64,000 nt of DNA, from NCBI GenBank assembly GCA_000092065.1, contig CP000594.1. One strand, 5' to 3'. Origin of the DNA: Ostreococcus lucimarinus. Its lineage: Eukaryota. Positions within the stretch are counted from its first letter, which is position 1; the number at the start of each line of letters is the position of its first letter. Shown here piece after piece: positions 1,054 through 45,464 of this stretch. The position numbers and the translations under genes were made by a program. The notes under the pieces were generated by a model, which made no database searches, had not been told where the DNA came from, and worked only from the letters and a program-made list of their open reading frames with translations.

Positions 1054-3282
1054 TCAAAGTCGTCGCTCGAATTGGGCGAGTGTCGTGAACTCTTTCTTGT
1101 TGCTGGCTATGGTCATCTCTTCGATGACGGCCGCGCGCTCTTGACGTCGCGCGAGCGCGATGCGCGCGTCCGTGATGCGCGCGAGTAATTCGCGATGAAC
1201 TTCCTCCACGGCGTCGAGTTGACCAAAACTCAAGTGTTCGAGATCGATGCCGAGAACGTGTCCGCAGCCGACGCCCGAAGCGCACGCCTCGAGATGCACG
1301 GCTTCCATTCGTCTCGACGCGCGAGCGACCCAACCTAAGGCATCCCAGTCCGCATCTATGTCCGTGGTGAAGATTTCTCGATCCCAATCGGGCATAGTCG
1401 CGGCGGCTGATCGCGGCGGCGGCGAAGGCGCCCCGACAGAGGAGTGCACGGCTTGCGGGATGTGGGACCAAATCGACCCATCGCCTCGCCATTGATTTAA
1501 TCTCGACTTACTCTGGTGTAGTTCTTCCTGGGATTCTCGCTGTTGCTCTGATTGCTGCTGCGCCGGCATGACCATCTCGTGATGCTGCATGAGCTGCTTT
1601 GGAACATCCACGGACGCCCAAGCGGGCTCTTCTTCCTCGGCGACGCGACCACTATGTTGCTCTATGGGCGCCTCGGGCGCCGTGGATTGACTATAAGCGC
1701 CATTTCGATCCAGTATTGATCCAGGTTGCGCGGATGCTTTATCCGCGTCGACTTGCCGCTTTCGCGCATTTCTTTCGGGCATATCATCCTTCGGTTTTGT
1801 CCCCGCCTTCGTTCTCCCGCTGCGTTTGCGTCGCAAAACGGTGGCGGCTGAAGGTGTGTCCTCGTCTTCAACGTCTTCCTTTGCGCTCGCAAACGGACTA
1901 TGCTCCACGGCATAATCCACCAGCTGTCGAGGAATGATTTCATCAGCCAAATCAAGCGCCGTTTGAGTCGTGCCCGTCGAAGTCTCGTCCGAAGCTTCGC
2001 GTCCGTTGAGCACCGACGGTGGACTCTCGCTGTTATCATCTTTCGCCATTTTGCTAGGAGTGGCCGATTCCGGCTCCGGCTCCGGTTCCGGCTTCGGTTC
2101 CGGTTCCGGCTTCGGTTCCGGTTCCGGCTCCGGCTTCGGTTCCGGTTCCGGCTCCGGCTCCGGTTCCGGTTCCGGCTTCGGTTCCGGTTCCGGCTTCGGT
2201 TCCGGTTCCGGTTCCGGCTTCGGTTCCGGTTCCGGTTCCGGCTTCGGTTCCGGTTCCGGCTTCGGTTCCGGTTCCGGCTCCGGTTCCGGTTCCTTCACAT
2301 TGTCCGGCTTGTCCTCCTTCTCCGGTTCCGACTCTGACCCTTCTTGGGCTTCCTCGGCTCCTTCTTCCGTCGCAAGCTTTTTCCTCTGACTTCCAGTGAG
2401 CTTTTTCTGTTTCTTCTTCTTTTTCTTCGGCTCATCGTCGAACAACGCCAGAGACTTGTCAAAGGTCGACATCGTTTGCGCCTCCATCGCGCTATCGAGC
2501 AAATCGACAATCGCAGTGTGGCCGCGCGACTTTGCCACGTCGCTCGCCGTATCGATCGTCCGTTTCGAACGCGACGAAGGCGTCCTGAACGGATTGAGCT
2601 TCTTTCCGCCGCGAGAACCGCCCTTCGAACAGGCATCGTCCCACTCCTTAGCCTTTCGTTCCATCTCGAATGAAATTCTGTCAAACGGACTGGCGCCGTG
2701 CTTTAACAAAAGCTTGACCACGTCCAGCGTACCAGCTCGAGCGGCGTGGTATAACGGAAAGCACGCATTACAATCCGACACAAATCCATTCTTCGTGAAC
2801 CGTCCATCCTCCAACAATATTTCCATGCACTCTTTTCCCGAGGTGTACGCCCCCAAATCCTTGTCGCGTTCGAAATCCTTGTCCAAAACTTTCAACGTCG
2901 CGTCATCGACGGCCGCCACCGCGCGCTCTCGCGCGTCGCAAGTCGAGATCAGTAAGTTCACCGGATCTTTACCGAGAAGATTCAACACGTGCTGATCGGC
3001 ACCGTGCTTTAACAGCCATCGCACCGATTTCGGCGACCCCGTCGCGCACGCCGCGTGCAAGGGCGAGTTGAGCGCATCATTCGGCGCCGATAAGAACGCC
3101 CGCAGCACCTGCTCCTCGTCGCATCGCTGAAACTCACTCGACGCACCGTCTCGCCTCGCTATTTCGCGAAACGGCCCCATGAAATTAAACTGTTCGTCGT
3201 GAAACATCACCAACCGCGCGACGAAGCGCAACCCGTCCAACAGCGCGTCCAGCATCTCCACGTCCCCGTTCGCCGCCGCCAC
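1054..3282 (-). CDS. ankyrin-repeat protein with a central low-complexity (PEPEPK)n tract and K/E-rich linker
   Basis: The N-terminal half has ANK-like repeats ([49 protein letters not shown]). The middle is an 18-bp tandem repeat coding [12 protein letters not shown]. The C-terminal region is non-repetitive. Confidence 0.55.
2060..2296. repeat. 18-bp tandem repeat (ccggttccggttccggcttcgg family), ~13 units, coding (PEPEPK)n on the minus strand
   Basis: Directly visible periodic ggttcc/ggctcc/ggcttc units. They create open frames on both strands (ORFs 1900..2337 and 1970..2389 on + are artefacts of the repeat). Confidence 0.85.
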
Positions 3283-3847: not shown

Positions 3848-6826
3848 ATGACGCGGCGGCGCGACGCGCGCGCGAAGAAGCGCGACGTCGCGACGCGCGA
3901 CGCGAGCGCGATGCGCGCGGAATCGCGCGCGCGACTGACGGCGGACGACGTCGTCGTCGTCGTCGGCGGCGGCGTCGCCGGGCTCGCGCTCGCGTCGTCG
4001 CTCGCGAGGGCGAGGGACGGGACGCGCGGCGCGGCGGACGCGCCGACGTGCGTCGTGCTCGAGCGCGACGGCTCGAGGGAGGCGCGAAGGCAAGGGTACG
4101 GGGTGACGCTGAGCGAGACGAACGCCGCGCTCGCGGGGCTGGGCGTGGGAGAGGCGCTGCGAGCGCGGTCGTGCGCGTCGAGCGCGCACTGGACGTTTGC
4201 GGCGAGCGGACGCGTGCTGGGGTACTACGGAAACGCGTTCGCGGCGACGGCGGGGGGGAAAGGGGACGGGTCGAGCGCGGGGGGGGCGATGGGGAAGCGA
4301 CCGATGAATCTGCGCGTGCCTCGCGACGCGGTGCGGAAGATTTTGTTGGAGAAGATTCCCGAGGCGTGGATTCGGTGGGGGACGCGAGTGGTGGATTACG
4401 CGGAGGACGACGAAAAGGTGACGGTGACGCTGGACACCGGGGAGAAGATCGAGGGCGCGATATTGGTCGCGGCGGATGGCGTGCGATCGGGAACGCGGCG
4501 AGCGCCCGGCGCGGGCGCGGATTTGAAGTCTGGGGAGCTGCGCTACCTCGGCGTCGCGCTCGTGACGGGATTTACGGATTTAGACGACGCGTTGTTGCGC
4601 GGGCAAGGGTTTTATACCGTCGACGGGCGGTCGAGGATGTTCACGATGCCCTTCGAGGCGGCGAACGAAGCTAAGGGCACGCCGCCGCGAAGCATGTGGC
4701 AACTGAGCGTGCGCGTGGACGAGGAGGAGGCGCGCGGATTGGCAAACGCGCCTCGCGAAGACGTCAAGGCGTTCGTTTTAGAGCACACCAAAGGATGGCA
4801 CGATCCGGTGAGCGCGATGTTCGACAACACGGAGTGGGAAGACGCCTGGGCGGGGCCGCTGTACGACCGAGAGGAGCCGCCGACGAGCAAGGCGCGAGCG
4901 AAGGAGACGCCGCACTTGGTCATGCGTAGCTCGAGCTCTCGAGTGATTTGCATAGGCGACGCCGCGCACCCAATGTCGCCGTTTAAAGGTCAAGGCGCGA
5001 ACACGGCGCTTTTCGATGCGTGGGCACTGTCAAAATGGTTACGCAAGGCGCCGCCTCAGACCGCGTTGGCGTGCTTCTACCGCGAGATGGTAGCTCGAGC
5101 GTTCGTGAAAGTGCGCGCCAGTCGAGAAGCGTGTGAAACGTTTCATAGTCCTAGCATACTCACCGAACGCATCCCAGAGTTTGCTGGGATCGATCCGAAA
5201 AAAATCAAGCTCGTGCTCGACACGCTGAACGAGCGAGGCATCGCGGCTTCGATGTGCGACGATCTAGAACCGGCGGTGCGACAGGTTGTCAACGAACTCG
5301 GCGCCGCAGAAGTCGTGAAACCGTACGCGGTGAAGAAAAAGTACGCCACGACGGCGTCCGAGGACGATCGCGGCTCGGAAACTGGATCCACGGCAAGCGA
5401 TGCGACAAATGCGTCTTTGGCGTCTTTTGCCTCGTCGGCTCTGTGCGGCGCGTTGAGCGAGAGCGTCGCCGACGCCGTAGCTTTGGCGTTATCGCGTTCT
5501 AATCAGCCTCCACTCACGACTGCTGAGCGTGAAATTGTCGGGAAATGTCGAGTGAGCGTCAATGGGCGCCGTCCCGCGAACAATTACGCGAGCAGTGCGC
5601 CCATTCGATTACTGGCCGCGAGAGGCGTGGCGAGAGTCGTCAACGGCGAAGAGGCGAGATTCGCTCGTCAAATCGCAGACGTCATCAATGAACGACAAGC
5701 GGCCCGAAATCGCGAAGATACCGTCGATGCTATCGTTGATGATACCGAAGATGATTATTTCATCTCCGCCAGACCCATGTCTGATGGTAAAGTGTTGCTC
5801 ACGACGAAGAAGCACGACGAGGCGCTGACGTCGCTCGGGTTGAAGCAATGCGAAGGTTGTTTGAAGTACTACGCCGTGCACGGCGGTGGCCTGCGGCAAC
5901 ATTGGGAATCTGGAGGCGATAGTCCCGATTGCGCTTCCGCAGCGCAGCGCGCGATGTCGTGCGAGAACACAGAGACTGAATCCAGCGCGTGGCGCGGCTC
6001 AGGCGCGGGGAAACCCAAGGCGTGGCGCACGGGTGGCAACCGCAAAGAGCTTTCGCCTGGAATGTCGGCCGCGTCACGTGGAGATTTGCTCGGCATGCGT
6101 CGAGCGATCGTAGAAGATGGCTGGGACCCAGTAACGGAGAAGGATGCCTTCGGGAGCAGCGCTCTGATGTGGGCCGCGGGCGGCGGTCACGTGGAGGCGT
6201 GCGAATTTCTCGTCGACGAATGCGGAGTCGATCCCAATCACACCGGCCGCAAAGACGGTCGAGTGCCCTTGCACTGGGCCGCTCGTAACGGCGAACTCGA
6301 AGCGTGTCAGTGGCTGGTGAGTCGAGGCGCGAAACCAGGGGTGGCGTCGTATGACGGTGACTTTCCTTTTCATTTGGCGATTTGGAAGAATCATCGAAAC
6401 GTAGCGGAATGGTTCGCGTCCACGCCTGGCTTTGATTGCGGGACGACGAACAGATGGGGGTGCAACGCCGTGTTATGGGCGTGTACCACAGAAACCAATC
6501 AAGACGATGCGCTGAGCATGGTGAAATGGCTCGTCGAGGATCTGAAGGTGGACTTTTCTGTCGTCAACGTCAACGGCCACTCGGCGTTGCACAAGTGCGC
6601 GATTTACGGCCACGAAAGTGTGATCGATTACTTGCTTGAATCGAAGATTGAATCGACAAAACGGGCAAAATTCATCATACCGGATGATAGAAACCAAGCG
6701 CCGAGCGAGTTGGCGCGCGTGAATGGATTTTTAGAGCTCGAAGTCAAGCTTCGACACATGGAGGATGAGACGCTGCGACTTCCGGCGATCGTCGAACCGT
6801 CCAGAGATTCATTCATTCGTGCCTAG
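3848..6826 (+). CDS. FAD-dependent monooxygenase (FAD_binding_3 / UbiH-salicylate hydroxylase type) fused to C-terminal ankyrin repeats
   Basis: Dinucleotide-binding motif VVVVGGGVAGLALASSLA, ADGVRSGTRR (DG motif) and ICIGDAAHPMSPFKGQGANTALFDAWAL (GD..H...P..GQG.N fingerprint). The C-terminus has ANK repeats (SALMWAAGGGHVEACEFLV, PLHWAARNGELEACQWLVSRGA, ALHKCAIYGHESVIDYLL). The true start may be the internal Met MRAESRARL. Confidence 0.7.
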   Translation: MTRRRDARAKKRDVATRDASAMRAESRARLTADDVVVVVGGGVAGLALASSLARARDGTRGAADAPTCVVLERDGSREARRQGYGVTLSETNAALAGLGVGEALRARSCASSAHWTFAASGRVLGYYGNAFAATAGGKGDGSSAGGAMGKRPMNLRVPRDAVRKILLEKIPEAWIRWGTRVVDYAEDDEKVTVTLDTGEKIEGAILVAADGVRSGTRRAPGAGADLKSGELRYLGVALVTGFTDLDDALLRGQGFYTVDGRSRMFTMPFEAANEAKGTPPRSMWQLSVRVDEEEARGLANAPREDVKAFVLEHTKGWHDPVSAMFDNTEWEDAWAGPLYDREEPPTSKARAKETPHLVMRSSSSRVICIGDAAHPMSPFKGQGANTALFDAWALSKWLRKAPPQTALACFYREMVARAFVKVRASREACETFHSPSILTERIPEFAGIDPKKIKLVLDTLNERGIAASMCDDLEPAVRQVVNELGAAEVVKPYAVKKKYATTASEDDRGSETGSTASDATNASLASFASSALCGALSESVADAVALALSRSNQPPLTTAEREIVGKCRVSVNGRRPANNYASSAPIRLLAARGVARVVNGEEARFARQIADVINERQAARNREDTVDAIVDDTEDDYFISARPMSDGKVLLTTKKHDEALTSLGLKQCEGCLKYYAVHGGGLRQHWESGGDSPDCASAAQRAMSCENTETESSAWRGSGAGKPKAWRTGGNRKELSPGMSAASRGDLLGMRRAIVEDGWDPVTEKDAFGSSALMWAAGGGHVEACEFLVDECGVDPNHTGRKDGRVPLHWAARNGELEACQWLVSRGAKPGVASYDGDFPFHLAIWKNHRNVAEWFASTPGFDCGTTNRWGCNAVLWACTTETNQDDALSMVKWLVEDLKVDFSVVNVNGHSALHKCAIYGHESVIDYLLESKIESTKRAKFIIPDDRNQAPSELARVNGFLELEVKLRHMEDETLRLPAIVEPSRDSFIRA

Positions 6827-25536: not shown

Positions 25537-25764
25537 TGGACTCGCGGCGGATGGCGCGCGCGCGCGTTTACGTAAGATTTATGCGGAGGGCGTTCGGGAG
25601 GACGGCGGCGCGCGATCGGTCGGCGCGGCGCGAAGATGAAATGAAACCCTAAAGCCTCAAATTTAGATAGAGCTCGCCGCGCGAGCTCCTAGCTTGTAAG
25701 ATGATTGATTCTTTCATGATGAATGCGAATCGAGGGCGAGCTAATAGAATCCGCGCGATGGTGG

Positions 25765-28700
25765 CTAACGCGTGCGCAAGACGCCGCGAGCGACGGTGAG
25801 GAAATCGGCGAGGTTGCGACGGAAGCGACGCTTGTTGACGCGGTCGACGCCCTCGGCGAGGCCGTTGGCGCTCGTGAGGGCGACGAAGGCGTTTTGGAGT
25901 AAATCGACGCTTCGTGGCTCGTCGGCGACGGCGGAGATGAAGGCAGAGGCGAGATTTTGGAACGCCGGGCGCTCGTGGAGGATGATGGGGAGGAGTGCGT
26001 CGGCGGCTTCGTCGACGAGATTGAAGACGGCTTCCTCGTAGACGAGACGGTGGAACAAGAGGCGCATGAGATGGGCGAGGATGGACACGCCCTCGGCGTT
26101 AGGGGCCATGTGTGCGCCTAAACCGATGGTTTGTGTCTTCGCACTGTTGCATTGGAACGTGGCCAGGGCGCCGAGCGCAGTCATGCTCTCCTTACTCACC
26201 GTCTCGTCGGCGTGCTTCAAGCCGAATTCGAGCGTCGACATGAGGGTGCCGAATAAGTCGGGCGCTAGCTGCGCGACTTTTTTGGGGTAGGCCTCGAGCA
26301 TGTACGCCAAAAGCTCGAAATATTGTCTGCAAAGCTTGGGGAACTTGAGCAATTCATCCGTGATGAGCGGGATGACGGCGTTCAAACCGGCGAAGACGAC
26401 GCGAGCGATGTCGATTTGTTCCGCGAGCGCCGCCGCCTGGTCGGGCGGCGCGCTCTCGATGATGGCGTCGTGTAAGTTTCCGCTCGACATGTGCGTGAGC
26501 ATGCGCAATAGCGCGCGAACTTCTTTATACGCCTCTTTTACCGCCTCTTGACTCAATAGCGCGCCGGCTTCCGACTTGACGGCGCCGCGGCCGGATTTCG
26601 CGTACGTCTCCACCACGCGCAGGCAATACCGACACACCCAATCCACTTGTTGGGCGTTGAGATACGGCGAGTTGGCCTCGACGAACTCCTCGGTCAGGCG
26701 CAGCAATAGCTTCATCACTCGTCCTAAATCTTTCGCGAGCGTTTGCAAATTTAGCAAGTGATCGACGGCTGCGACGAAAAAGTTGAAAACCGCCGGTTGG
26801 CTCTTTCCATTCGTCGATCGCACGACGCCTCGCAACGCCTCGAGCGCGGCGCACGCTCGAGCCTCGCCTTCGGGGTGATGTAAACCCTCACGATCGACGC
26901 TTACCGCGGCGATGACTTCGCCCGGGGGCGTGATGAGGGCGTTCACATACGCCTCGCACTGCGCGGGATCAATCACGCTCGCGGCGACGCGCCCGACGCA
27001 CTCGCTCAAACCGCGATGGACTTCGGGCGGGAACGCGACGACGCCGCGCTCATGATGCGCCCCAGCGCACGCCTGACGCAACGCATCCCACGAAGGCATG
27101 TTTACTAAGTGCTTCAACAGCGTCTTTCGTCGCGTGAGCACGGGAAACAACACGAATCCGATTGTTTTTTGTAAACTCGTCTCCCCCGGCCAATCGCTGA
27201 GCGCCTTGACGCCGATTTGCACGAGCGCGTCGAGCGCCTCCACGCCACCGTTTCTTTCGCTGAACATTCCCCCACCGTTCTCAGCGAGCTTGTTCGCGAT
27301 GTCAGCACCTCGTCGCACGCCTCCAGCGGCGGCGTACACCGCAGCGTGTAAGCTACCGCCGGAATCCTCTGGAATCAAATACGTATCCGCCCAACGCGCG
27401 AGCGCCCACACGACGGTTTCGAGCAGGCGAGGCGACAGCGCGCCGCGCGCGTTGGCGTCGAGCGCCAAGCAACCGAAATCGATCAACGCTCGCGCGAGTT
27501 CCACTACGCAGTTTGGTGCGCCTGGTGCCGTGGCTGCGGACGCCGCAGCGAGGGAGTCTGGTGGAATCGGCGTTTCGCCGTCGCCGTCATCCGCGAGCAC
27601 GTGCGCAGCCAGGCGCGTCAGCCACCATAATTCCTCCAACAACTCACTCGGATCTTGACCGCTCGCCATGCACGCGGGAAGCGAGTTTCGCTTTTCAACT
27701 AAAACGTGCTGCAGCGTCGGTAAAGTCGTCGTGGGATGCGCGCGCAAGACTTGGGCGGCGAGTTCGAGTCTCGCGTCGAGCGCCGCCGCCCCGGCTTGGC
27801 CCTCCTCTTCGTGCCCATCGTCCTCTTCGTGCGCGCCCTCGCGCGCGGCTTTCAACCCAGCGACGACGTAAGCGTGCGAAATATTTGCCGCTCCTTCTAA
27901 AACCGCGCTCGGAACCGCCGTTTCCACGCCTCCCGGCGCGCTCATGCCCTTGTTCACCAACGACGCCCACGCCTCGAGGAGCATCTTTAAACAATCATCC
28001 GTCACCGTGCCCTCGCACTGCACCGACAGCGCGTCTTGATTCAAGCACTCTAACGTGAGCTCGCCGAGTAAGTCTAGCGCGGTACGCTCGTTCAACTCCG
28101 GACCGAGCGATAAACTCGCGAAATCGTTGGCGTCGTGCACGAGCGCCAACGCGGACATGGAGCGGCAGCCGTCGATGAGGGCGTCTTCTCCGTGCCCCTC
28201 CAACGCCGCGCGCACGCTCGTCGCAGCCGGTAAGAGATACTTGGCGATCGCGCGCGCGCATCGCACGAAATGGCCCTGTCTCAGGCTATCGTCCGCATCC
28301 CGCGGGGGAAACACGCATCCACTGAGCGTGCAGAGCGCGCTCAGCGTCTTGCGACTCGCCGCGGCGACGCGCTTCGCCTCGACGCCTCCGCCCGCCAACA
28401 CCGCACTCTCCGCCCCAGCGTGCAAGTCGAACAACCAATCCAGCGCGCCTGGATTCAACAACACATCCCTCCACTCCATTCCCGGCGTGAGCTTCACGAA
28501 CGCGTTCGCCGCGCTCTCCGAGCTCGGAAACGCCCGTCCCCGAAACCCGTAACTCACGTCTCTATTAAAATCCCAACTCAACACCGCGTTCATCAACCGC
28601 AGCGCCGCCGCGCACGCCCCCCGATCGCTCCCATCGCTCACCCTCCCCGTCTCCACGCACCGTCTCGCCGCTTCGCACCCGTGCGCGAAGAACGGTTTCA

Positions 28701-29265
28701 AAAAATGTTTCTCCGCGCTCGCTCGACATCCTTCGTGCCGCTCCCACGTCGTCCCCAGTTCGCTCGCCGTCCCCGGCGCGAACTCGCTCACGATCGCCGC
28801 GAACACCTCCAGTCCCATCGTCTCCGCGTCCGATTCCCCCTTCGACGATTCCATCTTCGCCCGCACCTCGCGTTCGCACGCCCCCAGCGTCGCCATCTTC
28901 GTCGCGTCGTCCGCGTCCACCGCCGCGCGCTTCACCAGCGTCGCGCAGCACGCCGTCATCTGATTCCTCACCGCCCTCGCCGCGCCCTCCGCGTCCAGCG
29001 TCCATCGCAGCGCGAACGCGCGACACTCCTCGCGCTCGCTCGCGCGCATCGCGCCCCAGTCTCGCAGCGTCGCGTCGCGAAAGCACCGCGCGGCGTGAAA
29101 CTGGCCGTCGGTCGAGCTCTCGCGCGGGCGTTCGAGGACGCCGCGCGCGATCGCGCGCGCGTCGCGCCGCGCGCGCAGCTCGAGCAGCGCGCGCTCGGCG
29201 TTCGCGCGCTCGGCGCCGCGCAGCGCCGTCGCCGCGGCGTCGAACGCGCGCGCGTCGGCGTCCAT
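25765..29265 (-). CDS. exportin (importin-beta superfamily; XPO4/XPO7-sized, 1166 aa)
   Basis: Single uninterrupted 3.5-kb ORF. The N-terminus has an importin-beta N-terminal-like region ending ...CRAFALRW. The rest is an all-helical HEAT-like 1100-aa body. Family-level call only. Confidence 0.6.
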   Translation of the reverse strand: MDADARAFDAAATALRGAERANAERALLELRARRDARAIARGVLERPRESSTDGQFHAARCFRDATLRDWGAMRASEREECRAFALRWTLDAEGAARAVRNQMTACCATLVKRAAVDADDATKMATLGACEREVRAKMESSKGESDAETMGLEVFAAIVSEFAPGTASELGTTWERHEGCRASAEKHFLKPFFAHGCEAARRCVETGRVSDGSDRGACAAALRLMNAVLSWDFNRDVSYGFRGRAFPSSESAANAFVKLTPGMEWRDVLLNPGALDWLFDLHAGAESAVLAGGGVEAKRVAAASRKTLSALCTLSGCVFPPRDADDSLRQGHFVRCARAIAKYLLPAATSVRAALEGHGEDALIDGCRSMSALALVHDANDFASLSLGPELNERTALDLLGELTLECLNQDALSVQCEGTVTDDCLKMLLEAWASLVNKGMSAPGGVETAVPSAVLEGAANISHAYVVAGLKAAREGAHEEDDGHEEEGQAGAAALDARLELAAQVLRAHPTTTLPTLQHVLVEKRNSLPACMASGQDPSELLEELWWLTRLAAHVLADDGDGETPIPPDSLAAASAATAPGAPNCVVELARALIDFGCLALDANARGALSPRLLETVVWALARWADTYLIPEDSGGSLHAAVYAAAGGVRRGADIANKLAENGGGMFSERNGGVEALDALVQIGVKALSDWPGETSLQKTIGFVLFPVLTRRKTLLKHLVNMPSWDALRQACAGAHHERGVVAFPPEVHRGLSECVGRVAASVIDPAQCEAYVNALITPPGEVIAAVSVDREGLHHPEGEARACAALEALRGVVRSTNGKSQPAVFNFFVAAVDHLLNLQTLAKDLGRVMKLLLRLTEEFVEANSPYLNAQQVDWVCRYCLRVVETYAKSGRGAVKSEAGALLSQEAVKEAYKEVRALLRMLTHMSSGNLHDAIIESAPPDQAAALAEQIDIARVVFAGLNAVIPLITDELLKFPKLCRQYFELLAYMLEAYPKKVAQLAPDLFGTLMSTLEFGLKHADETVSKESMTALGALATFQCNSAKTQTIGLGAHMAPNAEGVSILAHLMRLLFHRLVYEEAVFNLVDEAADALLPIILHERPAFQNLASAFISAVADEPRSVDLLQNAFVALTSANGLAEGVDRVNKRRFRRNLADFLTVARGVLRTR

Positions 29266-29357
29266 GCGTCGCGATGTGTCCCACGTAGAACTTAGGGTTT
29301 AGACAGTTTGCCGACACGACACCTCAACTGTCGAGCCTCGTCAGCACACTCCTCGGC
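29266..29357. promoter_or_regulatory. 92-bp bidirectional promoter/5'UTR spacer between the divergent exportin (-) and EGF-like membrane-protein (+) genes
   Basis: Head-to-head ATGs at 29265 (minus strand) and 29358 (plus strand). The spacer is less GC-rich than the flanking CDS. Confidence 0.4.
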
Positions 29358-30308
29358 GTGACACCGACGATGGTGTACGGCGCCGTCCCCGTTAAGGACG
29401 AGGAGAACCCTCTCCTGGGCGTCCGATCATCTTCGAAGCGACCACGTTCGTTCGCGTACGGCGTTATCGCCGTCGTCTGCGTCGCGGCGCTTGCAATTTC
29501 GGGCGTCTCGCGCGCCACCGATGAATCCTCACGAGAGGATCATCTCTCCGCTTTGGGCGATCTTTCGAATGACTATCTCGCGAAGAGATCCTGGTGGCAG
29601 GACGTGAAGACTGCGAATGAAACCCTCATCACCGCGAAGCAGGCGTCCGACAAGGCGATGGAAGCCGCGGCCGAGGCGGAGGAGAAGTTCGACGAGCTTA
29701 AGCTTGATGCCGAGGAGAAAGACCGCATGTGCACAGATATTCATAAGGCTGAAGACCAAACATCGGGGTGCGACGACCATTGTTCCACCGGCGCTGTCCA
29801 GGCATCGCGTCTTGGATGGGGCTCGTGGTCCGTGTCTTCGTGGTCCTGGTCCGTGTCTTCGTGGTGGCAGTCTATTCGCCAAAGAGCTGCAGAAGCGGCA
29901 AAAAAGGCGGCCGAGGCCAAGAAAGCCAAGTGCATGGAGACGTGCAAAAGTCTCGACTGCGGTTTACCGAAATGTAAGAACGCCCCGGCACATCGAACAT
30001 GTCCTCCCGCATACTCGGGCGACCGGTGCAAAACTGGTTTTGATTTGTACGCTGACAAACCATATAGAAACATCGGGTGGCGTGTAGGAATAACCGGAGT
30101 CGATGAAAGCAGGAAATATTTTAAATGCCTCGGTACATACTGTAACCCTCCGATAGGGGCAGAGTATTACTTTCCAGATAAAAGAACCAACAAGTGCACA
30201 GAACGGGTTGTCATGGAACGGAAGGATACCTGGGGCAGGCTGAAATCCTACCACACCGTGGGTGTTGGCTCCGACTACTTAAGCGAGTGTGGAAAATGTA
30301 CCGATTAA
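29358..30308 (+). CDS. type II (signal-anchor) membrane protein with coiled-coil, W/S-rich tract and C-terminal EGF-like Cys-rich domain; compositionally atypical (low GC)
   Basis: Signal anchor FAYGVIAVVCVAALAISGV, coiled-coil region, WGSWSVSSWSWSVSSWW, and EGF-like CKNAPAHRTCPPAYSGDRC plus further Cys pairs. GC falls to ~42-57% in 60-bp windows at 29960..30180, against ~80% in neighbouring genes. A/T-ending codons are frequent. Confidence 0.5.
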   Translation: MTPTMVYGAVPVKDEENPLLGVRSSSKRPRSFAYGVIAVVCVAALAISGVSRATDESSREDHLSALGDLSNDYLAKRSWWQDVKTANETLITAKQASDKAMEAAAEAEEKFDELKLDAEEKDRMCTDIHKAEDQTSGCDDHCSTGAVQASRLGWGSWSVSSWSWSVSSWWQSIRQRAAEAAKKAAEAKKAKCMETCKSLDCGLPKCKNAPAHRTCPPAYSGDRCKTGFDLYADKPYRNIGWRVGITGVDESRKYFKCLGTYCNPPIGAEYYFPDKRTNKCTERVVMERKDTWGRLKSYHTVGVGSDYLSECGKCTD

Positions 30309-30730
30309 GTCGGCTTTCACCCTCGCCTATCAAGATTTTCTCAGACAACACCGACGATTTTTCAAACGTCCCCGCGTCGTTGTTTTTTGAGTACTATCCA
30401 AAGTTAAGTTTTACATAAGTCCTTCCAGCTCCTTGACTGAAAAGTTGTATTTTGCAATACTGCGCTCGGTGGGCGGCGTGCCTCGGTCGTGCGCGTTTTA
30501 AACACGTTTTTCGGAGGATTTTCGCCGCATGTTCGTTGTAGTATTGCAATTGGTACAACCCCCTTCGTCTTGTTCCACGAGAACTGAGGGACGCATTGAT
30601 AGACATCATCAAGAACCCGGAGACGCCGAGGGAGGAGGAGGTGGCAGAGTTGCCTCCATTCGCGCGACCAGAGCGTTGACGCGCTCTTCGAGTTCGTCGA
30701 GCGCCGCCGCGCGCGTCGACGCCGCGCGCG

Positions 30731-31912
30731 ATGGCGCGCTCGACGCGCTCGGGCGATGCGACGCGCGTCGACGCCTTGATGCGCGCGGTCGACGCGGTCG
30801 CGGACGCGCTCGGCGACGCGGGCGAGGCGAATCATCGCGCGTTTCGGGACGACGCAGAACGCATCGCGACGGCGCTGGAGCGAACGCTGACGCGCGACGA
30901 GGACGCGGACGCGTTCGCGGTGCTGGGCGTCGAACACACGGCTTCGATGTGGACGGCGTGCGTGGACGCGTGGACGCGGGCGGCGGAGACGCGCGAGGCG
31001 ACGCGCGCGACGGCGGCGACGCTGCGGGACGTCGCGGCGGCGGCGCGAGACGCGGAACGCGCGTGGGCCGCGAAACGCGCGCGAGGGGTGGCGAGAGAAC
31101 TGGAGGAGGTGGAATTGAGACACGACGCGCGAGTGCGCCGAGGCGAGGACGCGGCGCGAAGAGCGCGACTCGTCGGACGATTTCGAGCGGAGGAGACGGC
31201 GGCGCGGGACGCGCTCGGCGACGCGGGCGAGGCGAGCGCGGGCGTGGACGTCGTGGCGCGGTTTCGAGCGCTCGAGGGCGAGTTTTTGTGGCGCGAGGAG
31301 TGCGTGCTGCGAGGCGAGCGCGGGGCGAGCGCGCTGGAGGCGAGCGTGCGGGCGTTCGAGCCGGATTCGAGGGTGGGCGCGTTGGCGCTCGCGGTGACGC
31401 GCGCGGCGCGTTGGCGCGAGCGAGTGGCGACGTTCGAGGGACGGCGCGACGACGAATTCGAGCGCCGATGCGATCAAGACGTCATCGCGCGCATGGAGGC
31501 GCAGCACCCCGCGCTCGTGGCGCAGTACGTGATGTGGATGAAAGACGCCGCGTTGGAGTCGAGCGAACGCGCGGCTTCGAGCGCCGTCGCCGCCGCGACG
31601 ACGCATCTCTACGATTTCCTCCTCGCCCTCGACGCCGACGTCTACGACGCCGTTTTCGACGCCCAAGGCCGCGCGAACGTCCTCTGCGCGTCGTTCAACG
31701 CCCTCCACGTCCTGCGCTCGCGCGCGTCGCCGTCCTCGCCGCCGCCTCGGCTCGCCGCCGACGCGCGCGCGTTAATCTCTCGTCTCGTCGTCCGCGTCGA
31801 CGCCGAGCGCGACGCCGAGATCGCGCTTCACGGCGACGACTGGGGCCAGGCCGCGTTCGCCGTCGTCGCCGCGCGCTTGGCGAGCCAGAGATTACTCGAA
31901 GTCGTCGCGTAG
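30731..31912 (+). CDS. hypothetical protein (non-repetitive, no recognised domain)
   Basis: 393-aa ORF with balanced composition, unlike the overlapping arginine-rich frames (30529..32913 N-terminal part, 30404..31708 minus). Confidence 0.4.
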   Translation: MARSTRSGDATRVDALMRAVDAVADALGDAGEANHRAFRDDAERIATALERTLTRDEDADAFAVLGVEHTASMWTACVDAWTRAAETREATRATAATLRDVAAAARDAERAWAAKRARGVARELEEVELRHDARVRRGEDAARRARLVGRFRAEETAARDALGDAGEASAGVDVVARFRALEGEFLWREECVLRGERGASALEASVRAFEPDSRVGALALAVTRAARWRERVATFEGRRDDEFERRCDQDVIARMEAQHPALVAQYVMWMKDAALESSERAASSAVAAATTHLYDFLLALDADVYDAVFDAQGRANVLCASFNALHVLRSRASPSSPPPRLAADARALISRLVVRVDAERDAEIALHGDDWGQAAFAVVAARLASQRLLEVVA

Positions 31913-43055: not shown

Positions 43056-45464
43056 ATGGGAAAGAAGGAAGAGACCCCCGAGCAGCGCGCCGCGCGCAAG
43101 GCGAAAGGTGCGTCGCGCGTTTCGTCGCGTTTCTTCGAGGCGGCGGCTGCGCTGGTCTCGAAAGATCGCCGCGCTCGCGCCGCGTGCGCGCGCGCGGCGC
43201 GCTCGTGCGCGCGCGAAACCGAACGAAGCGATCGCGATGAAGGACTGACGGACGTTCGCGACGCGCGTCGCGACGGTGTGCGCGCAGAGAAGGGCGAGAA
43301 GAAGTCTGACAAGGGCGAAAAGAAGGAAAAGAAGGAAAAGAAGGAGAAAAGGGACGACAAGGGCAGGAGAGGGAATGAAAAGACCGCGCCGAGAGCGCCG
43401 CCGAAGATGCGAGCGCCGCCGCCGCCGACGAACGATCGGGACGATTACTTGGCGGGGATGGATTTGCCGTCGAGCGATAGCGATAGCGGAAGCGAAAAGG
43501 AGGTCGCACGCGAGGAGAAGGTGACCGCGCTTCCGTCGGGACCGACGGATAAACAAATCAAGCGACAGAGACAGAAAGAGATTGAAGCGGCGCGTAAAGA
43601 GGCGCAGGCTAAAGCGGAGGCGATGATGGAGGATGATGACGCGTTCAACGTGCGAATTCCGAACATGTCGGACGAAATGATGGCGGCGATGGCGAATAGT
43701 AGGGATATTAAGATCGACGGGTTCTCCGTGAGCGCCCGAGGGAAGCCTTTGTTGACCAACACCTCGTTGACGATCGCACACGGGCGGAGATACGGTTTGG
43801 TGGGTCCTAACGGTACCGGTAAAACCACCGTGATGAAATTGCTCGCGAGGCGCAAAATTCCCGTCCCAGAGCACATCGACATTTTGCTCGTCGAACAAGA
43901 AGTTGTCGGTGATGATCGCTCGGCGTTGCAATCTGTCGTCGCGGCCGACGTCGAGTTGCAAGATTTACGCAAGAAGAAGGTTGAGCTCGAAGACTTGATG
44001 GAGAAGCTCGCCATCGGCGACTCGAGCGTGACGGAGCCCGTGTTCAAAAACGAAGAGACGGGCGAAGAGAACGATTTGAACGCTGAGCTCAACAAAACGT
44101 ACGAACGATTGAATGAGAAGGGAGACGCCACCGCAGAAGCGCGCGCGTCGAAGATTCTTCACGGTTTGGGTTTTACGGTGCCGAAGAAGGATGGTTCGCA
44201 AGGGCCGGATCGTTTCTCCATGCACAACACTACGAAAAGCTTTTCTGGTGGTTGGCGTATGCGCATCTCCCTCGCCCGCGCGCTGTTCATCGAGCCCACG
44301 TGTTTGTTGCTCGATGAGCCGACCAACCACTTGGATTTACGAGCTGTTATTTGGCTTGAAGAGTATTTGATGCGCTGGAAGAAGACGCTCGTCGTCGTAT
44401 CGCACGATCGCGACTTCTTGTCCTCCGTCACGACGGATATCGTGCACTTGCACGACCACAAGCTCGACCAATACAAGGGCTCATTCGATCAATTCGAAGA
44501 GATGTACGAGATTCGTCGTCGCGAGGCTAATAAGGCTTTCGAAAAGTACGAAAAGGAGATGAAGGCGGCGAAGAAGGCGTCGAGCAAATCGAAGCAGCAA
44601 GATGTCAAGGACAAGGCGAAGAAGGCCCAAGAGCGCAAACAAGGGAATAAAAAGAATAAGGGTATGATGATGGACGACGACGACGACGCGCCGTCACAAT
44701 TACCTGAGAAATGGGCCGATTACCAAGTCAAATTTAGCTTCCCGACGCCGACTGAGTTGCCTCCGCCACTCATTGGCCTGAACGAGTGTTCGTTCGAGTA
44801 TCCCGGACTCAAAGGCTTTTCGTTGGACAAAATCGACCTTGGTATCGATATGGGTACGCGAGTGGCTATCATTGGCCCGAATGGTGCGGGTAAGTCTACG
44901 CTGATGAATCTCTTAGCCGGCGACTTGGAACCAACGAGCGGGGAATCGCGCCGTTCGCACGCGCTGAGAATCGGTCGCTACTCTCAGCACTTCGTCGACG
45001 TCTTAGCCATGGACGAAAATCCAGTGGAGTACTTGAGACGCAAGTACCTGAAAGAGAACGGCTCTTCGTACAAGCCCGAAGAAATCCGCGCCAAGCTCGG
45101 TCGATTCGGCTTGCCCGGGCACAACCACTTGACACCGATCGTGAAACTTTCCGGTGGTCAAAAAGCTCGCGTCGTTTTCACAGCCATCGGTCTATCCAAC
45201 CCTCACATCTTGCTTCTGGATGAGCCGACGAACCACTTGGACATGCAGTCGATCGATGCCCTCGCGGATGCCTTGGAAGAATTCGAAGGCGGCGTCGTCA
45301 TGATTACGCACGACGCGCACATTTGCGAACAAGTGCTCGACGACGAGAAGAGCGAGATTTGGGTCGTCGACGAAGGTCGTGTCGATAAATTCAACGGCGA
45401 TTTCGCGGAGTACCGCAAACAATTAGTCGCTGAAATCGCCGCCGAGCTCGACGACGAAAATTAA
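43056..45464 (+). CDS. ABCF1: ABC-F family ATPase (ABCF1/ABC50/GCN20-like) with K/E-rich N-terminal extension and two ABC cassettes
   Basis: Two Walker A motifs (GLVGPNGTGKTT; AIIGPNGAGKST) and two ABC signatures (FSGGWRMRISLARAL; LSGGQKARVVFTAI). There is no transmembrane domain. The K/E-rich N-terminus matches ABCF1. A possible in-frame 180-nt intron at 43108..43287 is discussed in the findings. Confidence 0.85.
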   Translation: MGKKEETPEQRAARKAKGASRVSSRFFEAAAALVSKDRRARAACARAARSCARETERSDRDEGLTDVRDARRDGVRAEKGEKKSDKGEKKEKKEKKEKRDDKGRRGNEKTAPRAPPKMRAPPPPTNDRDDYLAGMDLPSSDSDSGSEKEVAREEKVTALPSGPTDKQIKRQRQKEIEAARKEAQAKAEAMMEDDDAFNVRIPNMSDEMMAAMANSRDIKIDGFSVSARGKPLLTNTSLTIAHGRRYGLVGPNGTGKTTVMKLLARRKIPVPEHIDILLVEQEVVGDDRSALQSVVAADVELQDLRKKKVELEDLMEKLAIGDSSVTEPVFKNEETGEENDLNAELNKTYERLNEKGDATAEARASKILHGLGFTVPKKDGSQGPDRFSMHNTTKSFSGGWRMRISLARALFIEPTCLLLDEPTNHLDLRAVIWLEEYLMRWKKTLVVVSHDRDFLSSVTTDIVHLHDHKLDQYKGSFDQFEEMYEIRRREANKAFEKYEKEMKAAKKASSKSKQQDVKDKAKKAQERKQGNKKNKGMMMDDDDDAPSQLPEKWADYQVKFSFPTPTELPPPLIGLNECSFEYPGLKGFSLDKIDLGIDMGTRVAIIGPNGAGKSTLMNLLAGDLEPTSGESRRSHALRIGRYSQHFVDVLAMDENPVEYLRRKYLKENGSSYKPEEIRAKLGRFGLPGHNHLTPIVKLSGGQKARVVFTAIGLSNPHILLLDEPTNHLDMQSIDALADALEEFEGGVVMITHDAHICEQVLDDEKSEIWVVDEGRVDKFNGDFAEYRKQLVAEIAAELDDEN

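What the first reader, a model, noticed from the sequence alone, without database searches (positions are those of the whole stretch)
29358..30560. A ~1 kb low-GC island carrying an EGF-like type II membrane-protein gene
Sixty-base windows at 30061..30180 are 42-43% GC, and the gene body averages roughly 50%. Genes a few hundred bp away sit at about 75-82% (for example 31021..31080). Codon choice also shifts to A/T-ending codons such as AAA, TAT, ACA, AAT and GAT. The encoded protein is atypical for the neighbourhood. It has a signal anchor, a K/E coiled coil, an unusual WGSWSVSSWSWSVSSWW tract, and an EGF-like Cys-rich domain (C..C..CPPAYSGDRC). A sharp compositional discontinuity confined to one gene suggests recent acquisition, for example horizontal or viral-derived. 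Alternatively it could be a gene under very different expression or mutational constraints. In small green algae, low-GC outlier regions are a known and poorly understood phenomenon.
Basis: seen in the sequence. Interest (0 to 1): 0.6.

Follow-up and report, generated by a model that had tools for sequence, protein, structure and literature searches.

The report
Inserted hypervariable surface-protein gene in Ostreococcus
The low-GC patch is a single 1.1-1.3 kb gene inserted only in the Ostreococcus lucimarinus lineage. It belongs to a small mobile gene family encoding a membrane-anchored protein whose outer tip differs completely between wild cells of one species, making it a candidate cell-surface recognition molecule (virus or mate), though its function is untested.

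Summary
The window is Ostreococcus lucimarinus CCE9901, and the gene is XP_001421336.1 (312 aa, ATG at 29370).

- **Observation:** real but overstated. The CDS is 55% GC. Only 29919-30617 falls below 50%.
- **What the low-GC part is:** a hypervariable cassette (29976-30260) plus the 3'UTR.
- **Allelic variation:** wild contigs of the same species are 98-100% identical on both sides. Across the cassette they are unalignable, with at least two cassette classes at this locus.
- **Empty sites:** three related lineages keep the flanking synteny but lack the gene. A fourth has no family gene next to XPO4.
- **Other locations:** the same unit sits at at least four other loci in a lineage or lineages not closely related to CCE9901. 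One copy lies 3 kb from a telomere. One lies inside a low-GC cluster with a D5-type primase-helicase and a weak integrase-like ORF.
- **Divergence:** family dS is 0.03-0.2, against 1.0-2.9 for housekeeping genes.
- **Negative results:** no viral relatives, no Pfam EGF match, no remote homologues and no confident fold.

Recent acquisition is supported. A giant-virus origin is not. The most likely reading is a mobile variable-surface-protein family. Its recognition function is inferred, not shown.

The parts
29291..30552 (+). Inserted gene unit with its own 5' region, CDS and 3' region. It lies between the divergent genes XPO4 (25765-29265, minus strand) and the 393-aa gene (30731-31912, plus strand).
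   Evidence: Window 29293-30411 is 92-94% identical to copies in unrelated contexts (L001-L004). The 3' homology runs to 30433-30477 in L009, L015 and L025, and to 30552 in L014. The syntenic site is empty in L018-L022, and XPO4 has another ORF as its immediate neighbour in L023/L024.
29291..29302 (+). TTAGGGTTTAGA, a telomere-repeat-like (telo-box-like) motif at -77 from the ATG. It marks the 5' edge of the shared unit.
   Evidence: It is the only TAGGGTTTAG in 64 kb, with 0 expected by chance. TAGGGTTT lies at about -67 to -123 in most other copies (one further site at -29 in locus C). It also occurs at -77/-70 of an unrelated Sad1_UNC gene. A promoter element is therefore more likely than a telomere relic.
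29370..30308 (+). CDS of 312 aa plus stop. It equals XP_001421336.1 / UniProt A4S7U7, annotated 'predicted protein'.
29370..29453 (+). Predicted cytoplasmic tail (aa 1-28). It carries an almost invariant EENPLL (an [DE]xxxL[LI]-type acidic dileucine pattern) and the basic stretch KRPRSF just before the anchor.
   Evidence: Residues A5 to F28 are conserved in at least 90% of 18 sequences. The sorting-signal reading rests on established motif knowledge and was not tested.
29454..29507 (+). Single hydrophobic anchor AYGVIAVVCVAALAISGV (aa 29-46). With basic residues on the N-terminal side it implies type II topology.
   Evidence: The sequence itself. The AF2 model has a helix at 27-46. The model is low-confidence, so only the secondary structure is used.
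29523..29975 (+). Conserved helical stalk (aa 52-202). It holds a conserved N-x-T sequon (NET/NDT), the W/S tract, and the Cys-rich border KCMETCKSLDCGLPKC (29928-29975).
   Evidence: The conserved N-terminal part as a whole (tail, anchor and stalk, through GLPKC) is 82-100% aa identical across all loci, with dN/dS mostly 0.2-0.6 (one pair 1.06). AF2 places helices at 52-150 and 164-194.
29817..29867 (+). W/S tract WGSWSVSSWSWSVSSWW, encoded by a 21-nt tandem repeat (29823-29864). Its length varies between alleles.
   Evidence: family D5, two copies, 95% identical. Length variation is visible. Identity drops with gaps here.
29900..29905 (+). A6 homopolymer. It is A7 in two independent metagenome contigs, giving a +1 frameshift in an otherwise intact gene.
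29976..30260 (+). Hypervariable cassette (aa 203-297). It is the Cys-containing, beta-rich head, and the lowest-GC coding segment (49% GC, GC3 0.52).
   Evidence: Same-species contigs L005-L008, L011 and L012 are 98-100% identical on both sides but only 22-40% (unalignable) here. Cassette aa identity is 19-94%, against 82-100% for the N-terminal part. GC is 45-53% in all alleles examined.
30261..30305 (+). Conserved C-terminal tail GVGSDYLSECGKCTD.
   Evidence: It is invariant or nearly so in 18 sequences. It is shared with two tandem domains of the secreted protein P0147.
30309..30552 (+). 3'UTR and downstream part of the unit (47% GC). It is conserved between alleles and contains a 10-nt perfect inverted repeat at 30452-30461 / 30540-30549.
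   Evidence: No Rfam match.
30652..30700 (+). A 49-bp stretch shared with a subtelomeric contig of a related lineage. Its relation to the insertion is unexplained.
   Evidence: It is 94% identical to L025 9614-9662 (minus strand). Its first 21 nt also abut the terminal (TTTAGGG)n of L025.

Best explanation
**What it is.** The island is one self-contained gene unit of about 1.1-1.3 kb (29291 to about 30552). It was inserted into the bidirectional promoter region between XPO4 and its divergent neighbour, in the O. lucimarinus lineage only.

**The family.** It belongs to a small, apparently Ostreococcus-restricted, dispersed gene family. Copies in other Ostreococcus lineages lie next to unrelated genes. 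One lies 3 kb from a telomere. One lies inside a low-GC cluster with a D5-type primase-helicase and a weak tyrosine-recombinase-like ORF.

**The protein.** It has a short cytoplasmic tail with an acidic dileucine-type motif, a single anchor, a conserved helical stalk and a C-terminal Cys-containing head.

**The variation.** The head is a sharply bounded hypervariable cassette between two conserved borders, KCMETCK..GLPKC and GVGSDYLSECGKC. Alleles with 98-100% identical flanks carry unalignable cassettes. The same cassette classes recur at different loci and in different lineages. The family therefore behaves as a shared pool, exchanged by recombination at the conserved borders.

**Why low GC.** The signal is the sum of two parts: the cassette (GC3 0.41-0.61 in every allele examined) and an ordinary AT-richer 3'UTR.

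**Shown:** the insertion, the family, the cassette boundaries, the composition, and the low divergence between lineages.

**Inferred:**
1. Type II topology with the head outside the cell.
2. The head is a recognition surface under diversifying or balancing selection. The likeliest partners are prasinovirus attachment proteins, or else gamete or self recognition.
3. The cassette's low GC reflects the GC-to-AT mutation bias left uncorrected by GC-biased gene conversion, because diverged cassettes rarely recombine. Alternatively or additionally, it reflects residence in low-GC mobile or subtelomeric DNA.

**Confidence.** The figure of 0.7 is for the statement as a whole. I put the structural and evolutionary part (insertion, mobile family, hypervariable cassette) at about 0.85. 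I put the recognition function at about 0.4.
For: **Identity**
- 100% match to the O. lucimarinus CCE9901 predicted protein.

**Same-locus alleles**
- L005-L008, L011, L012 and L026 come from independent assemblies.
- Their flanks are 99.1-99.4% identical to the window up to 29975 and from 30261-30265 onward.
- In 50-bp bins identity is 98-100% outside the cassette and 22-40% inside it.

**Empty sites**
-. tblastn finds no family sequence in L018-L024.

**Other contexts**
- Locus B.
- Locus C.
- Locus D.
- Locus E, with terminal TTTAGGG repeats.
- The locus B lineage is not closely related to CCE9901. Its YAK1 kinase is at most 87% identical to any other cluster (77% for the next full-length one), and no CCE9901-named protein appears among the close hits listed or the cluster members read.

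**Divergence**
- XPO4 dS is 0.011 within the species and 1.0-1.3 between lineages. YAK1 dS is 2.9.
- The family's N-terminal dS is 0.03-0.2 across all loci. The class I cassette has dS 0.016 between the window and L002.

**Selection**
- N-terminal dN/dS is mostly 0.2-0.6 (one pair 1.06).
- L002 and L004 encode identical proteins with only 2 synonymous differences.
- Class I cassette changes are 6:1, 20:3 and 17:2 nonsynonymous to synonymous.

**Cassette classes against N-terminal types**
-.

**Composition**
-.

**Literature**
- GC-to-AT mutation bias, with equilibrium GC 36.8% against 59% observed in O. tauri, and the AAACCCT telomere repeat (PMC5455958).
- Lower GC3 where recombination is suppressed, and GC-biased gene conversion in Ostreococcus (PMC8557840).
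- Prasinovirus hypervariable region encoding genes linked to host recognition and attachment (PMC12906663).
Against: - Function is untested.
- Two AlphaFold runs gave mean pLDDT 43, so there is no fold evidence. There is no Pfam or PDB match.
- The excess of nonsynonymous change in the cassette is not significant (Fisher p 0.055-0.35). dS between cassette classes is saturated.
- Only one copy is annotated in CCE9901, and none lies elsewhere in the window. Exchange between copies within one genome is therefore not shown for this strain.
- The lineage identity of loci B-E rests on neighbouring-gene divergence in metagenome contigs. Some of these contigs are long-read assemblies with frameshifts.
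- The integrase call is weak (PHROG 1e-5; Pfam 0.047, below threshold).
- No target-site duplication or terminal repeats were found at the insertion, so the insertion mechanism is unknown.
- The conserved 3'UTR is also low in GC. Hypervariability alone therefore does not explain the island.
Confidence: 0.7

Rival explanations
1. The gene is cargo of, and is spread between Ostreococcus lineages by, an integrating virus-like or mobile DNA element. The window copy would be a solo remnant delivered by such an element. This overlaps with the best explanation and differs mainly on the ultimate source.
For: - In L001-L003 the gene sits in a unidirectional 46-56% GC cluster. That cluster holds a D5_N/DUF5906 primase-helicase (Pfam above threshold; PHROG DNA primase 6e-16) and an integrase-like ORF.
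- 108-nt repeats with an AT-rich palindrome lie left of the cluster's first ORFs and, twice, between the family gene and the primase gene.
- A repeat of about 150-200 bp recurs just upstream of family genes at other loci.
- Between-lineage dS is 6-25 times below background.
Against: - The window shares only the gene unit with locus D. It has no integrase, primase or repeats.
- IMG/VR holds no close relatives of the primase or the 472-aa protein, as tested with single-protein queries.
- The integrase evidence is weak.
- Within locus D the N-terminal part of the gene is richer in GC (58%) than its surroundings (39-45% in the 300-bp flanks). That fits capture of a host gene at least as well as an origin in the element.
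Confidence: 0.3
2. One reading: a recent horizontal acquisition from a prasinovirus, another giant virus, or a foreign organism.
For: - The cassette GC (45-53%) is nearer the roughly 41% GC reported for some prasinoviruses (PMC12906663) than the host's 63%.
- The syntenic site is empty in related lineages.
Against: - No relative was found in IMG/VR with the protein, the full alignment or the head alignment.
- No virus-labelled hit appeared among 29 homologues from 5.8 billion proteins.
- Only family members, fragments and one weak tail-only match (P0147) appeared among 1.84 billion representatives.
- No PHROG match.
- Every family member whose genomic context was examined lies among Ostreococcus-type host genes or in the locus D cluster.
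Confidence: 0.06
3. An ordinary, vertically inherited host gene whose composition merely reflects low expression or local mutational constraints.
For: - Other long ORFs in the window, taken as genes, have similar overall GC (55-58%) and GC3 of 0.65-0.69.
- Low-GC patches are common at 3' ends.
Against: - No syntenic copy was found in the four related lineages sampled.
- The same unit occurs in four other contexts.
- Family dS is far below species divergence.
- The cassette GC3 lies in the lowest 0.3% of windows.
Confidence: 0.03
4. An assembly or annotation artefact, or a decaying pseudogene.
For: - Some homologues carry frameshifts (P0004, P0024, P0026, L027/L028).
- One short contig begins with an adapter sequence.
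Against: - Seven independent metagenome contigs reproduce one or both junctions at about 99% identity.
- The ORF is intact in most alleles.
- dN/dS is mostly below 1 in the N-terminal part.
- L002 and L004 encode identical proteins despite synonymous differences.
Confidence: 0.02

Closest known systems
Subtelomeric or dispersed variant surface-protein ('contingency') gene families of microbial eukaryotes: Trypanosoma VSG, Plasmodium var, Giardia VSP, Candida EPA and yeast FLO. (Comparison from my own knowledge.)
   Same: - A multi-locus family with at least one copy 3 kb from a telomere.
- Conserved anchor and stalk with a hypervariable, Cys-containing exposed domain.
- Conserved borders that could guide segmental recombination.
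- The same cassette classes found at different loci.
- Repeat-length and homopolymer variation.
   Different: - No sequence or detectable fold relationship to any of them.
- Type II topology.
- The family is very small (about 29 clusters at 90% identity).
- The organism is a free-living haploid picoalga, not a parasite or pathogen.
- Only one copy is annotated in the reference strain.
- Switching within a clone is not shown. The variation seen is between individuals and lineages.
Long-term balanced recognition loci with highly diverged alleles and homogenised flanks: fungal het and MAT idiomorphs, plant S-locus, MHC, and the candidate Mamiellales mating-type region (PMC8557840).
   Same: - Unalignable alleles at one locus within one species.
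- Allele classes shared across lineages.
- Lower GC3 in the diverged segment, as reported for Ostreococcus mating-type genes.
   Different: - The diverged segment here is only about 290 bp inside one gene.
- The gene is recently inserted and mobile between loci.
- More than two classes exist.
- There is no link to the big outlier chromosome. The window is 62.8% GC overall.
Low-GC outlier chromosomes of Mamiellales: the big and small outlier chromosomes, the 'viral immunity chromosome' (PMC5082852, PMC5498103; titles and abstracts only).
   Same: - Low GC.
- Hypervariability between strains.
- A proposed link to virus resistance.
   Different: - Scale: 1.3 kb against hundreds of kb.
- The gene lies in a normal-GC chromosome arm with conserved synteny.
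Cargo genes of integrating virus-like elements of protists, such as polinton-like viruses and virophage-like elements (PMC10120064; title and abstract only).
   Same: One family copy is embedded among a primase-helicase, an integrase-like ORF and unidirectional ORFs of lower GC than the host genes nearby.
   Different: - No capsid or packaging genes were identified.
- No IMG/VR relatives were found.
- The window copy is a solo gene.

Membership tests
EGF-like domain (Pfam EGF clan; PROSITE EGF_1 and EGF_2) | A significant match to an EGF profile. | tested here: not met
   No EGF family at E <= 1 for the window protein. None at E <= 0.1 for three other alleles.
EGF-like domain (Pfam EGF clan; PROSITE EGF_1 and EGF_2) | A conserved six-Cys framework that includes C-x-C-x5-G-x2-C. 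| tested here: not met
   Only C-x5-G-x2-C is present (CPPAYSGDRC). The preceding C-x-C is absent. The motif lies in the variable cassette and is missing from cassette classes II and III.
Prasinovirus or giant-virus-derived gene | A homologue encoded in viral genomes or contigs. | tested here: not met
   Three IMG/VR scans found none. No viral label among hits. Profile search of 1.84e9 proteins. No PHROG match.
Mamiellales low-GC outlier chromosome region | A region of 100 kb or more whose GC is about 10 points below the genome, with disrupted synteny. | tested here: not met
   The window is 62.8% GC overall. The low-GC stretch is about 0.7 kb. Flanking synteny is conserved in related lineages.
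Variant surface-protein / contingency gene family | A hypervariable exposed domain bounded by conserved sequence. | tested here: met
   Exposure itself is inferred from topology, not shown.
Variant surface-protein / contingency gene family | Several copies per genome, including subtelomeric ones. | tested here: inconclusive
   Five contexts exist across lineages, and one copy is 3.2 kb from TTTAGGG repeats. Two copies occur in one sample, ERZ28548058. Only one copy is annotated in CCE9901, and its full genome could not be searched.
Variant surface-protein / contingency gene family | Switching or exchange of variable segments by recombination or slippage. | not testable with these tools
   The evidence is indirect only. 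Cassette class and N-terminal type are combined differently at different loci. An A6/A7 frameshift occurs in an otherwise intact gene.
Balanced recognition locus (het, S-locus or MHC type) | Highly diverged alleles at one locus in one population, with homogenised flanks. | tested here: met
   Locus A carries classes I and II, with flanks 99% identical.
Balanced recognition locus (het, S-locus or MHC type) | An excess of nonsynonymous change in the recognition segment. | tested here: inconclusive
   Omega is 1.4-2.3 in class I pairs. Counts are 6:1, 20:3 and 17:2 in the cassette against 8:5, 5:4 and 10:7 in the N-terminal part. Fisher p is 0.055-0.35.
Diversity-generating retroelement target | A nearby template repeat of the variable region, plus a reverse transcriptase. 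| tested here: not met
   No second copy of the cassette or of the family exists in the 64-kb window. No reverse transcriptase was seen in the neighbouring genes.
Integrating virus-like element (tyrosine recombinase plus primase-helicase), considered for locus D only | A primase-helicase and an integrase within a bounded element. | tested here: inconclusive
   The primase-helicase is solid (DUF5906 32.7 bits against a 27.6 cutoff; PHROG 6e-16). The integrase is weak (PHROG 1e-5; Pfam 0.047). Element boundaries and capsid genes were not found.

The most novel reading that the evidence does not exclude
Ostreococcus carries a previously undescribed, horizontally mobile 'variable receptor' gene family. 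It encodes a type II surface protein whose roughly 100-150-residue head is swapped as a cassette between loci, strains and even species, possibly carried by an integrating virus-like element. The head would be the strain-specific determinant of prasinovirus attachment, or alternatively of gamete or self recognition. Homopolymer and repeat slippage would provide on/off and length variation. This would be a free-living alga's counterpart of parasite antigenic-variation systems, and a first candidate host-side partner for the hypervariable attachment region of prasinoviruses.
Probability: 0.25. Interest if true: 0.8.

Novelty: new variant of a known kind. Interest (0 to 1): 0.62.

Why it matters
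**The open question.** Prasinovirus-Ostreococcus infection is highly strain-specific. [quoted passage not shown] The passages I read name no host-side receptor. To my knowledge none has been identified.

**What this gene offers.** It is a compact, experimentally tractable candidate. It is a single-exon gene in a transformable genus. Its exposed tip is completely different between wild cells of one species, while the rest of the protein is nearly invariant.

**What the low-GC patch shows.** A kilobase-scale low-GC patch in a compact algal genome can mark a recently inserted gene that is shared across lineages, rather than a viral import. This extends the link between low GC, rare recombination and hypervariability from the outlier chromosomes down to a 290-bp cassette.

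**What could follow.** Allele frequencies in Tara-type metagenomes could be used to test frequency-dependent selection in the open ocean.

**If the function turns out to be mundane.** The finding still documents gene sharing between Ostreococcus lineages whose housekeeping genes are saturated at synonymous sites.

Tried and rejected
1. **Domain and family searches.**
   - Pfam gave only sub-threshold hits: Alanine_zipper (E 0.01) and CdiA-CT RNase A (E 0.58). I treat both as noise.
   - PHROGs gave nothing.
   - A profile search of PDB sequences gave nothing.
2. **Structure.**
   - AlphaFold2 on the full alignment gave mean pLDDT 42.8. On a head-only alignment that included the two P0147 domains it gave 43.3.
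   - Both are too poor for a fold search, so none was run.
3. **Remote homology.**
   - A profile search of 1.84e9 representatives found only family members, fragments and one tail match, P0147.
4. **Viral origin.**
   - Three IMG/VR scans for the family were negative. Two more, for locus D proteins, were also negative.
5. **Telomere relic at the 5' edge.**
   - Rejected as the preferred reading. The same motif sits at a similar distance upstream of most other copies and of an unrelated gene. A true telomere adjoins only locus E.
6. **Transposon signatures at the insertion.**
   - No convincing target-site duplication or terminal inverted repeats were found. The only candidate is an 11-nt direct repeat, ACACCGACGAT, at 29361 and 30348, which is probably chance.
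7. **Known RNA elements.**
   - No Rfam match in 28800-31200 at E <= 1.
8. **Silent cassettes or paralogues in the window.**
   - None found.
9. **JGI metagenome scan.**
   - It returned only 3 loci, because one search pattern was unspecific.
10. **Lineage naming of loci B-E.**
    - Cluster look-ups gave no species names. 'Different lineage' therefore rests on divergence of neighbouring genes.
11. **Literature.**
    - Four searches found no description of this gene or family.
Full report
**1. Source and gene**

- The 312-aa protein encoded at 29370-30308 (+) is 100% identical to 'predicted protein [Ostreococcus lucimarinus CCE9901]'. Its accessions are XP_001421336.1, ABO99629.1 and UniProt A4S7U7. 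It lies on a 708,927-bp record.
The annotated ATG is at 29370.

**2. The observation**

- The window is 62.8% GC.
- The quoted 60-bp values are correct: 43.3% at 30061-30180 and 81.7% at 31021-31080.
- The CDS is 55.1% GC, not about 50%.
- 200-bp windows fall below 50% only across 29919-30617. That is the last third of the CDS plus the 3'UTR and intergenic DNA.
- The N-terminal two thirds are 58% GC with GC3 0.68.
- At whole-gene level the composition is not unique. Several other long ORFs in the window, taken as genes, have 55-58% GC and GC3 0.65-0.69. About 15 other patches fall below 50% GC, many of them at convergent 3' ends.
- The last 95 codons before the conserved tail have GC3 0.516. 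Only 0.3% of 95-codon windows in the other genes are that low (mean 0.743).
- The anchor, the helical region and the W/S tract are real. The W/S tract is a 21-nt tandem repeat at 29823-29864.
- 'EGF-like' is not supported. There is no Pfam EGF hit at E <= 1, the C-x-C is missing, and the motif is not conserved among alleles.

**3. A hypervariable cassette**

- The 29 homologue clusters found are almost all from marine metagenomes.
- They share a conserved N-terminal part of about 200 residues (82-100% identical) and a conserved tail, GVGSDYLSECGKCTD.
- Between these lies a segment of 76-152 residues that is only 19-94% identical. It falls into about seven classes.
- Contigs L005-L008 (P0012), L011 and L012 (P0011) and L026 (P0003-like) come from independent assemblies. 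They carry the same neighbours as the window: PRK/CYTH, RPS17, XPO4, then the gene, then the 393-aa gene, methyltransferase and SET.
- In the contigs carrying class II cassettes (L005-L008, L011, L012), flanks are 99.1-99.4% identical to the window up to 29975 and again from 30261-30265. No similarity is detectable between those points. L026 carries a class I variant and aligns throughout at 99.1% overall.
- In 50-bp bins, identity is 98-100% outside the cassette and 22-40% inside it. The W/S repeat also shows indels.
- One species therefore carries at least two cassette classes at this locus. These are class I, in the window and in L026 (80% identical within the class), and class II, in P0011 and P0012.
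- The cassette boundaries coincide with the drop in GC.
- Every allele examined has a low-GC cassette: 45-53% GC and GC3 0.41-0.61.

**4. A lineage-specific insertion**

- XPO4 orthologues at 76-77% aa identity lie on contigs with the same gene order (L018/19, L020/21, L022).
- In those contigs XPO4 and the divergently transcribed neighbour (a detectable orthologue of the 393-aa protein in L018-L020) are about 80-280 bp apart. In the window they are 1,465 bp apart.
- tblastn finds no family sequence in those contigs.
- In the closest lineage (XPO4 82%; L023/24) another ORF starts 28 bp from the XPO4 ATG.
- About 25 bp lie left and about 180 bp right of the unit (29291 to about 30552). Together these match the size of an empty intergenic region.

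**5. The same unit elsewhere**

- Window 29293-30411 is 92-94% identical to L001-L004, but the surrounding DNA there is unrelated.
- The contexts are:
  - **Locus B:** Gpi1 - 2OG-Fe(II) oxygenase - YAK1 kinase, then the gene (L004, L014). It lies 6.7 kb from the end of a 1.0-Mb contig.
  - **Locus C:** pseudouridine synthase ... Sad1_UNC, then the gene (L009, L015-17).
  - **Locus D:** L001-L003, described in the next section.
  - **Locus E:** La - LSM11 - DUF4336, then the gene (L025). It lies 3.2 kb from a contig end that terminates in TTTAGGG repeats. This is the Mamiellophyceae telomere repeat (PMC5455958).
- Alternative cassettes also occur at loci B and C, within flanks 99.4-99.7% identical.
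- Cassette classes cross loci. Class I occurs at A, B and D. Class III occurs at B, C and E.
- The locus B lineage is not closely related to CCE9901.
  - Its YAK1 kinase is at most 87% identical to any other cluster, and 77% identical to the next full-length cluster.
  - No CCE9901-named protein appears among the close hits listed or the cluster members read.
  - That next cluster's loci have a different gene order and no family gene.

**6. A virus-like neighbourhood at locus D**

- In L003 the gene lies in a unidirectional block at 46-56% GC.
- The block contains a D5_N/DUF5906 primase-helicase (Pfam 32.7 bits against a 27.6 cutoff; PHROG 'DNA primase' 6e-16).
- It also contains an ORF with weak tyrosine-recombinase similarity. 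PHROG scores it at 1e-5. Pfam Phage_integrase scores the same residues at 0.047, below threshold.
- 108-nt repeats with an AT-rich palindrome lie left of the cluster's first ORFs and, twice, between the family gene and the primase gene.
- No capsid genes or IMG/VR relatives were found.
- This keeps a mobile-element vector on the table, but it is not shown.

**7. Divergence**

| Comparison | dS |
|---|---|
| XPO4, window vs same-species contig | 0.011 |
| XPO4, window vs other lineages | 1.0-1.3 |
| YAK1, between lineages | 2.9 |
| Family N-terminal part, all loci | 0.03-0.2 |
| Family N-terminal part, window vs B/D copies | 0.045-0.06 |
| Family N-terminal part, two alleles at locus A | 0.05-0.07 |
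| Class I cassette, window vs L002 | 0.016 |

- Family members at different loci and lineages are thus no more diverged than alleles at one locus. They are far less diverged than the host genomes.
- That requires either recent movement between lineages or a continuously shared pool.
- N-terminal dN/dS is mostly 0.2-0.6 (one pair 1.06). L002 and L004 encode identical proteins with only 2 synonymous differences. The gene is therefore under purifying selection and is not junk.
- Within class I, cassette changes are mostly nonsynonymous: 6:1, 20:3 and 17:2. The N-terminal part gives 8:5, 5:4 and 10:7. Omega is 1.4-2.3, but this is not significant (p 0.055-0.35).

**8. What the protein looks like**

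- The tail (aa 1-28) is nearly invariant. It contains EENPLL, which fits the [DE]xxxL[LI] adaptor-binding pattern. This is established motif knowledge and was not tested here.
- Basic residues precede the single anchor (aa 29-46). This predicts that the N-terminus is cytoplasmic.
- The stalk keeps an N-x-T sequon (NET or NDT) in all sequences. That is consistent with a lumenal or extracellular location.
- AlphaFold models are poor (pLDDT 43). They consistently give helices for aa 52-194 and beta strands for the head.
- The only remote relative is P0147, a secreted metagenomic protein. It has two tandem domains sharing the scaffold C..GF[DE]M...KC.E.V...GVGAD[YF]..CGKC.
- The head is therefore probably a small disulfide-stabilised module with no described family.

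**9. Best explanation and its limits**

- The island is a recently inserted member of a mobile family with a hypervariable head, plus that member's AT-richer 3'UTR.
- The low GC of the cassette fits two known features of Mamiellophyceae.
  - One is a strong GC-to-AT mutation bias, with equilibrium GC 36.8% against 59% observed in O. tauri (PMC5455958).
  - The other is GC-biased gene conversion, with lower GC3 where recombination is suppressed (PMC8557840). Cassettes too diverged to recombine would drift toward AT.
- Residence in low-GC mobile or subtelomeric DNA is an alternative or additional cause. I cannot separate the two.
- The functional reading is inference from architecture and population pattern. 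I read the head as an exposed recognition surface under diversifying or balancing selection. Prasinovirus attachment is the most attractive partner, given the hypervariable attachment region described on the viral side (PMC12906663).

**10. Verdict**

- The EGF label is rejected.
- The gene belongs to no described family.
- As a kind of system it resembles variant surface-protein families and balanced recognition loci. It appears here in a new setting: a free-living picoalga, a cassette shared across lineages, and a possible mobile-element vector.

Noticed in passing
window 29900-29905; L027 near 1567; L028 near 773: The A6 run in the stalk-coding region is A7 in two metagenome contigs from different sources (JGI and Tara). 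This causes a +1 frameshift. Deleting one A restores an intact 304-aa ORF through the conserved tail. It could be slippage-type on/off variation, a recent null allele, or a shared sequencing error.
   Followed up: partly
window 30652-30700; L025 9614-9662 and 11780-11800: A 49-bp stretch upstream of the 393-aa gene is 94% identical to a sequence in a subtelomeric contig of another lineage. Its first 21 nt (CCTCCATTCGCGCGACCAGAG) also directly abut that contig's terminal TTTAGGG repeats. Unexplained.
   Followed up: partly
window 25644-25651; L018 10769, L020 10595, L023 4246 and others: A telo-box-like AAACCCTA between the 3' ends of RPS17 and XPO4 is conserved in lineages whose XPO4 is only 76-82% identical. 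This suggests a functional element.
   Followed up: no
L013 298-499; L009 and L015-17 5797-5903; L010 1327-1522; L001 636-846; L003 1001-1188: A repeat of about 150-200 bp recurs just upstream of family genes at several loci. It also occurs as inverted copies beside the locus D cluster, so it may be a small mobile element. L013 begins with a Nextera adapter sequence and may be chimeric.
   Followed up: partly
L003 1726-1833, 7784-7891, 8001-8108: 108-nt direct repeats with the palindrome CTTTAACTTTAAAAAATTTTTAAAGTTAAAG occur in the low-GC cluster that holds the family gene, an integrase-like ORF and a D5-type primase-helicase.
   Followed up: partly
L014 7130-7417; L025 9201-9503: Small nuclease-like ORFs lie just downstream of the subtelomeric or contig-end family copies. 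They are GIY-YIG (Pfam 1.8e-6) and Mrr_cat_2 (Pfam 2.8e-5).
   Followed up: no
window 30731-31912: The 393-aa neighbour has no Pfam domain and evolves very fast. It is 32-34% identical between lineages in which XPO4 is 76% identical. It is also extremely GC-rich (70-81%).
   Followed up: no
P0147 (ENA metagenome protein, 290 aa): A secreted protein with a Pro/Thr-rich linker and two tandem copies of the head-domain scaffold, each ending GVGAD[YF]..CGKC. It is the only remote relative found. Its organism is unknown.
   Followed up: partly
window 60707-63700 (-), 1054-3255 (-), 3848-6826 (+), 43056-45464 (+): Other long ORFs, taken as genes, contain low-GC coding patches. One 95-codon stretch is 43.9% GC, and others have GC3 0.47-0.50. 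They were not examined for hypervariability or insertion.
   Followed up: no
P0019 and P0022 (source 'merc', accessions ERR1712159_...): Two full-length homologues come from a catalogue whose accessions look like sequencing-run assemblies, possibly metatranscriptomes. If so, the family is transcribed in the sea. This was not verified.
   Followed up: no
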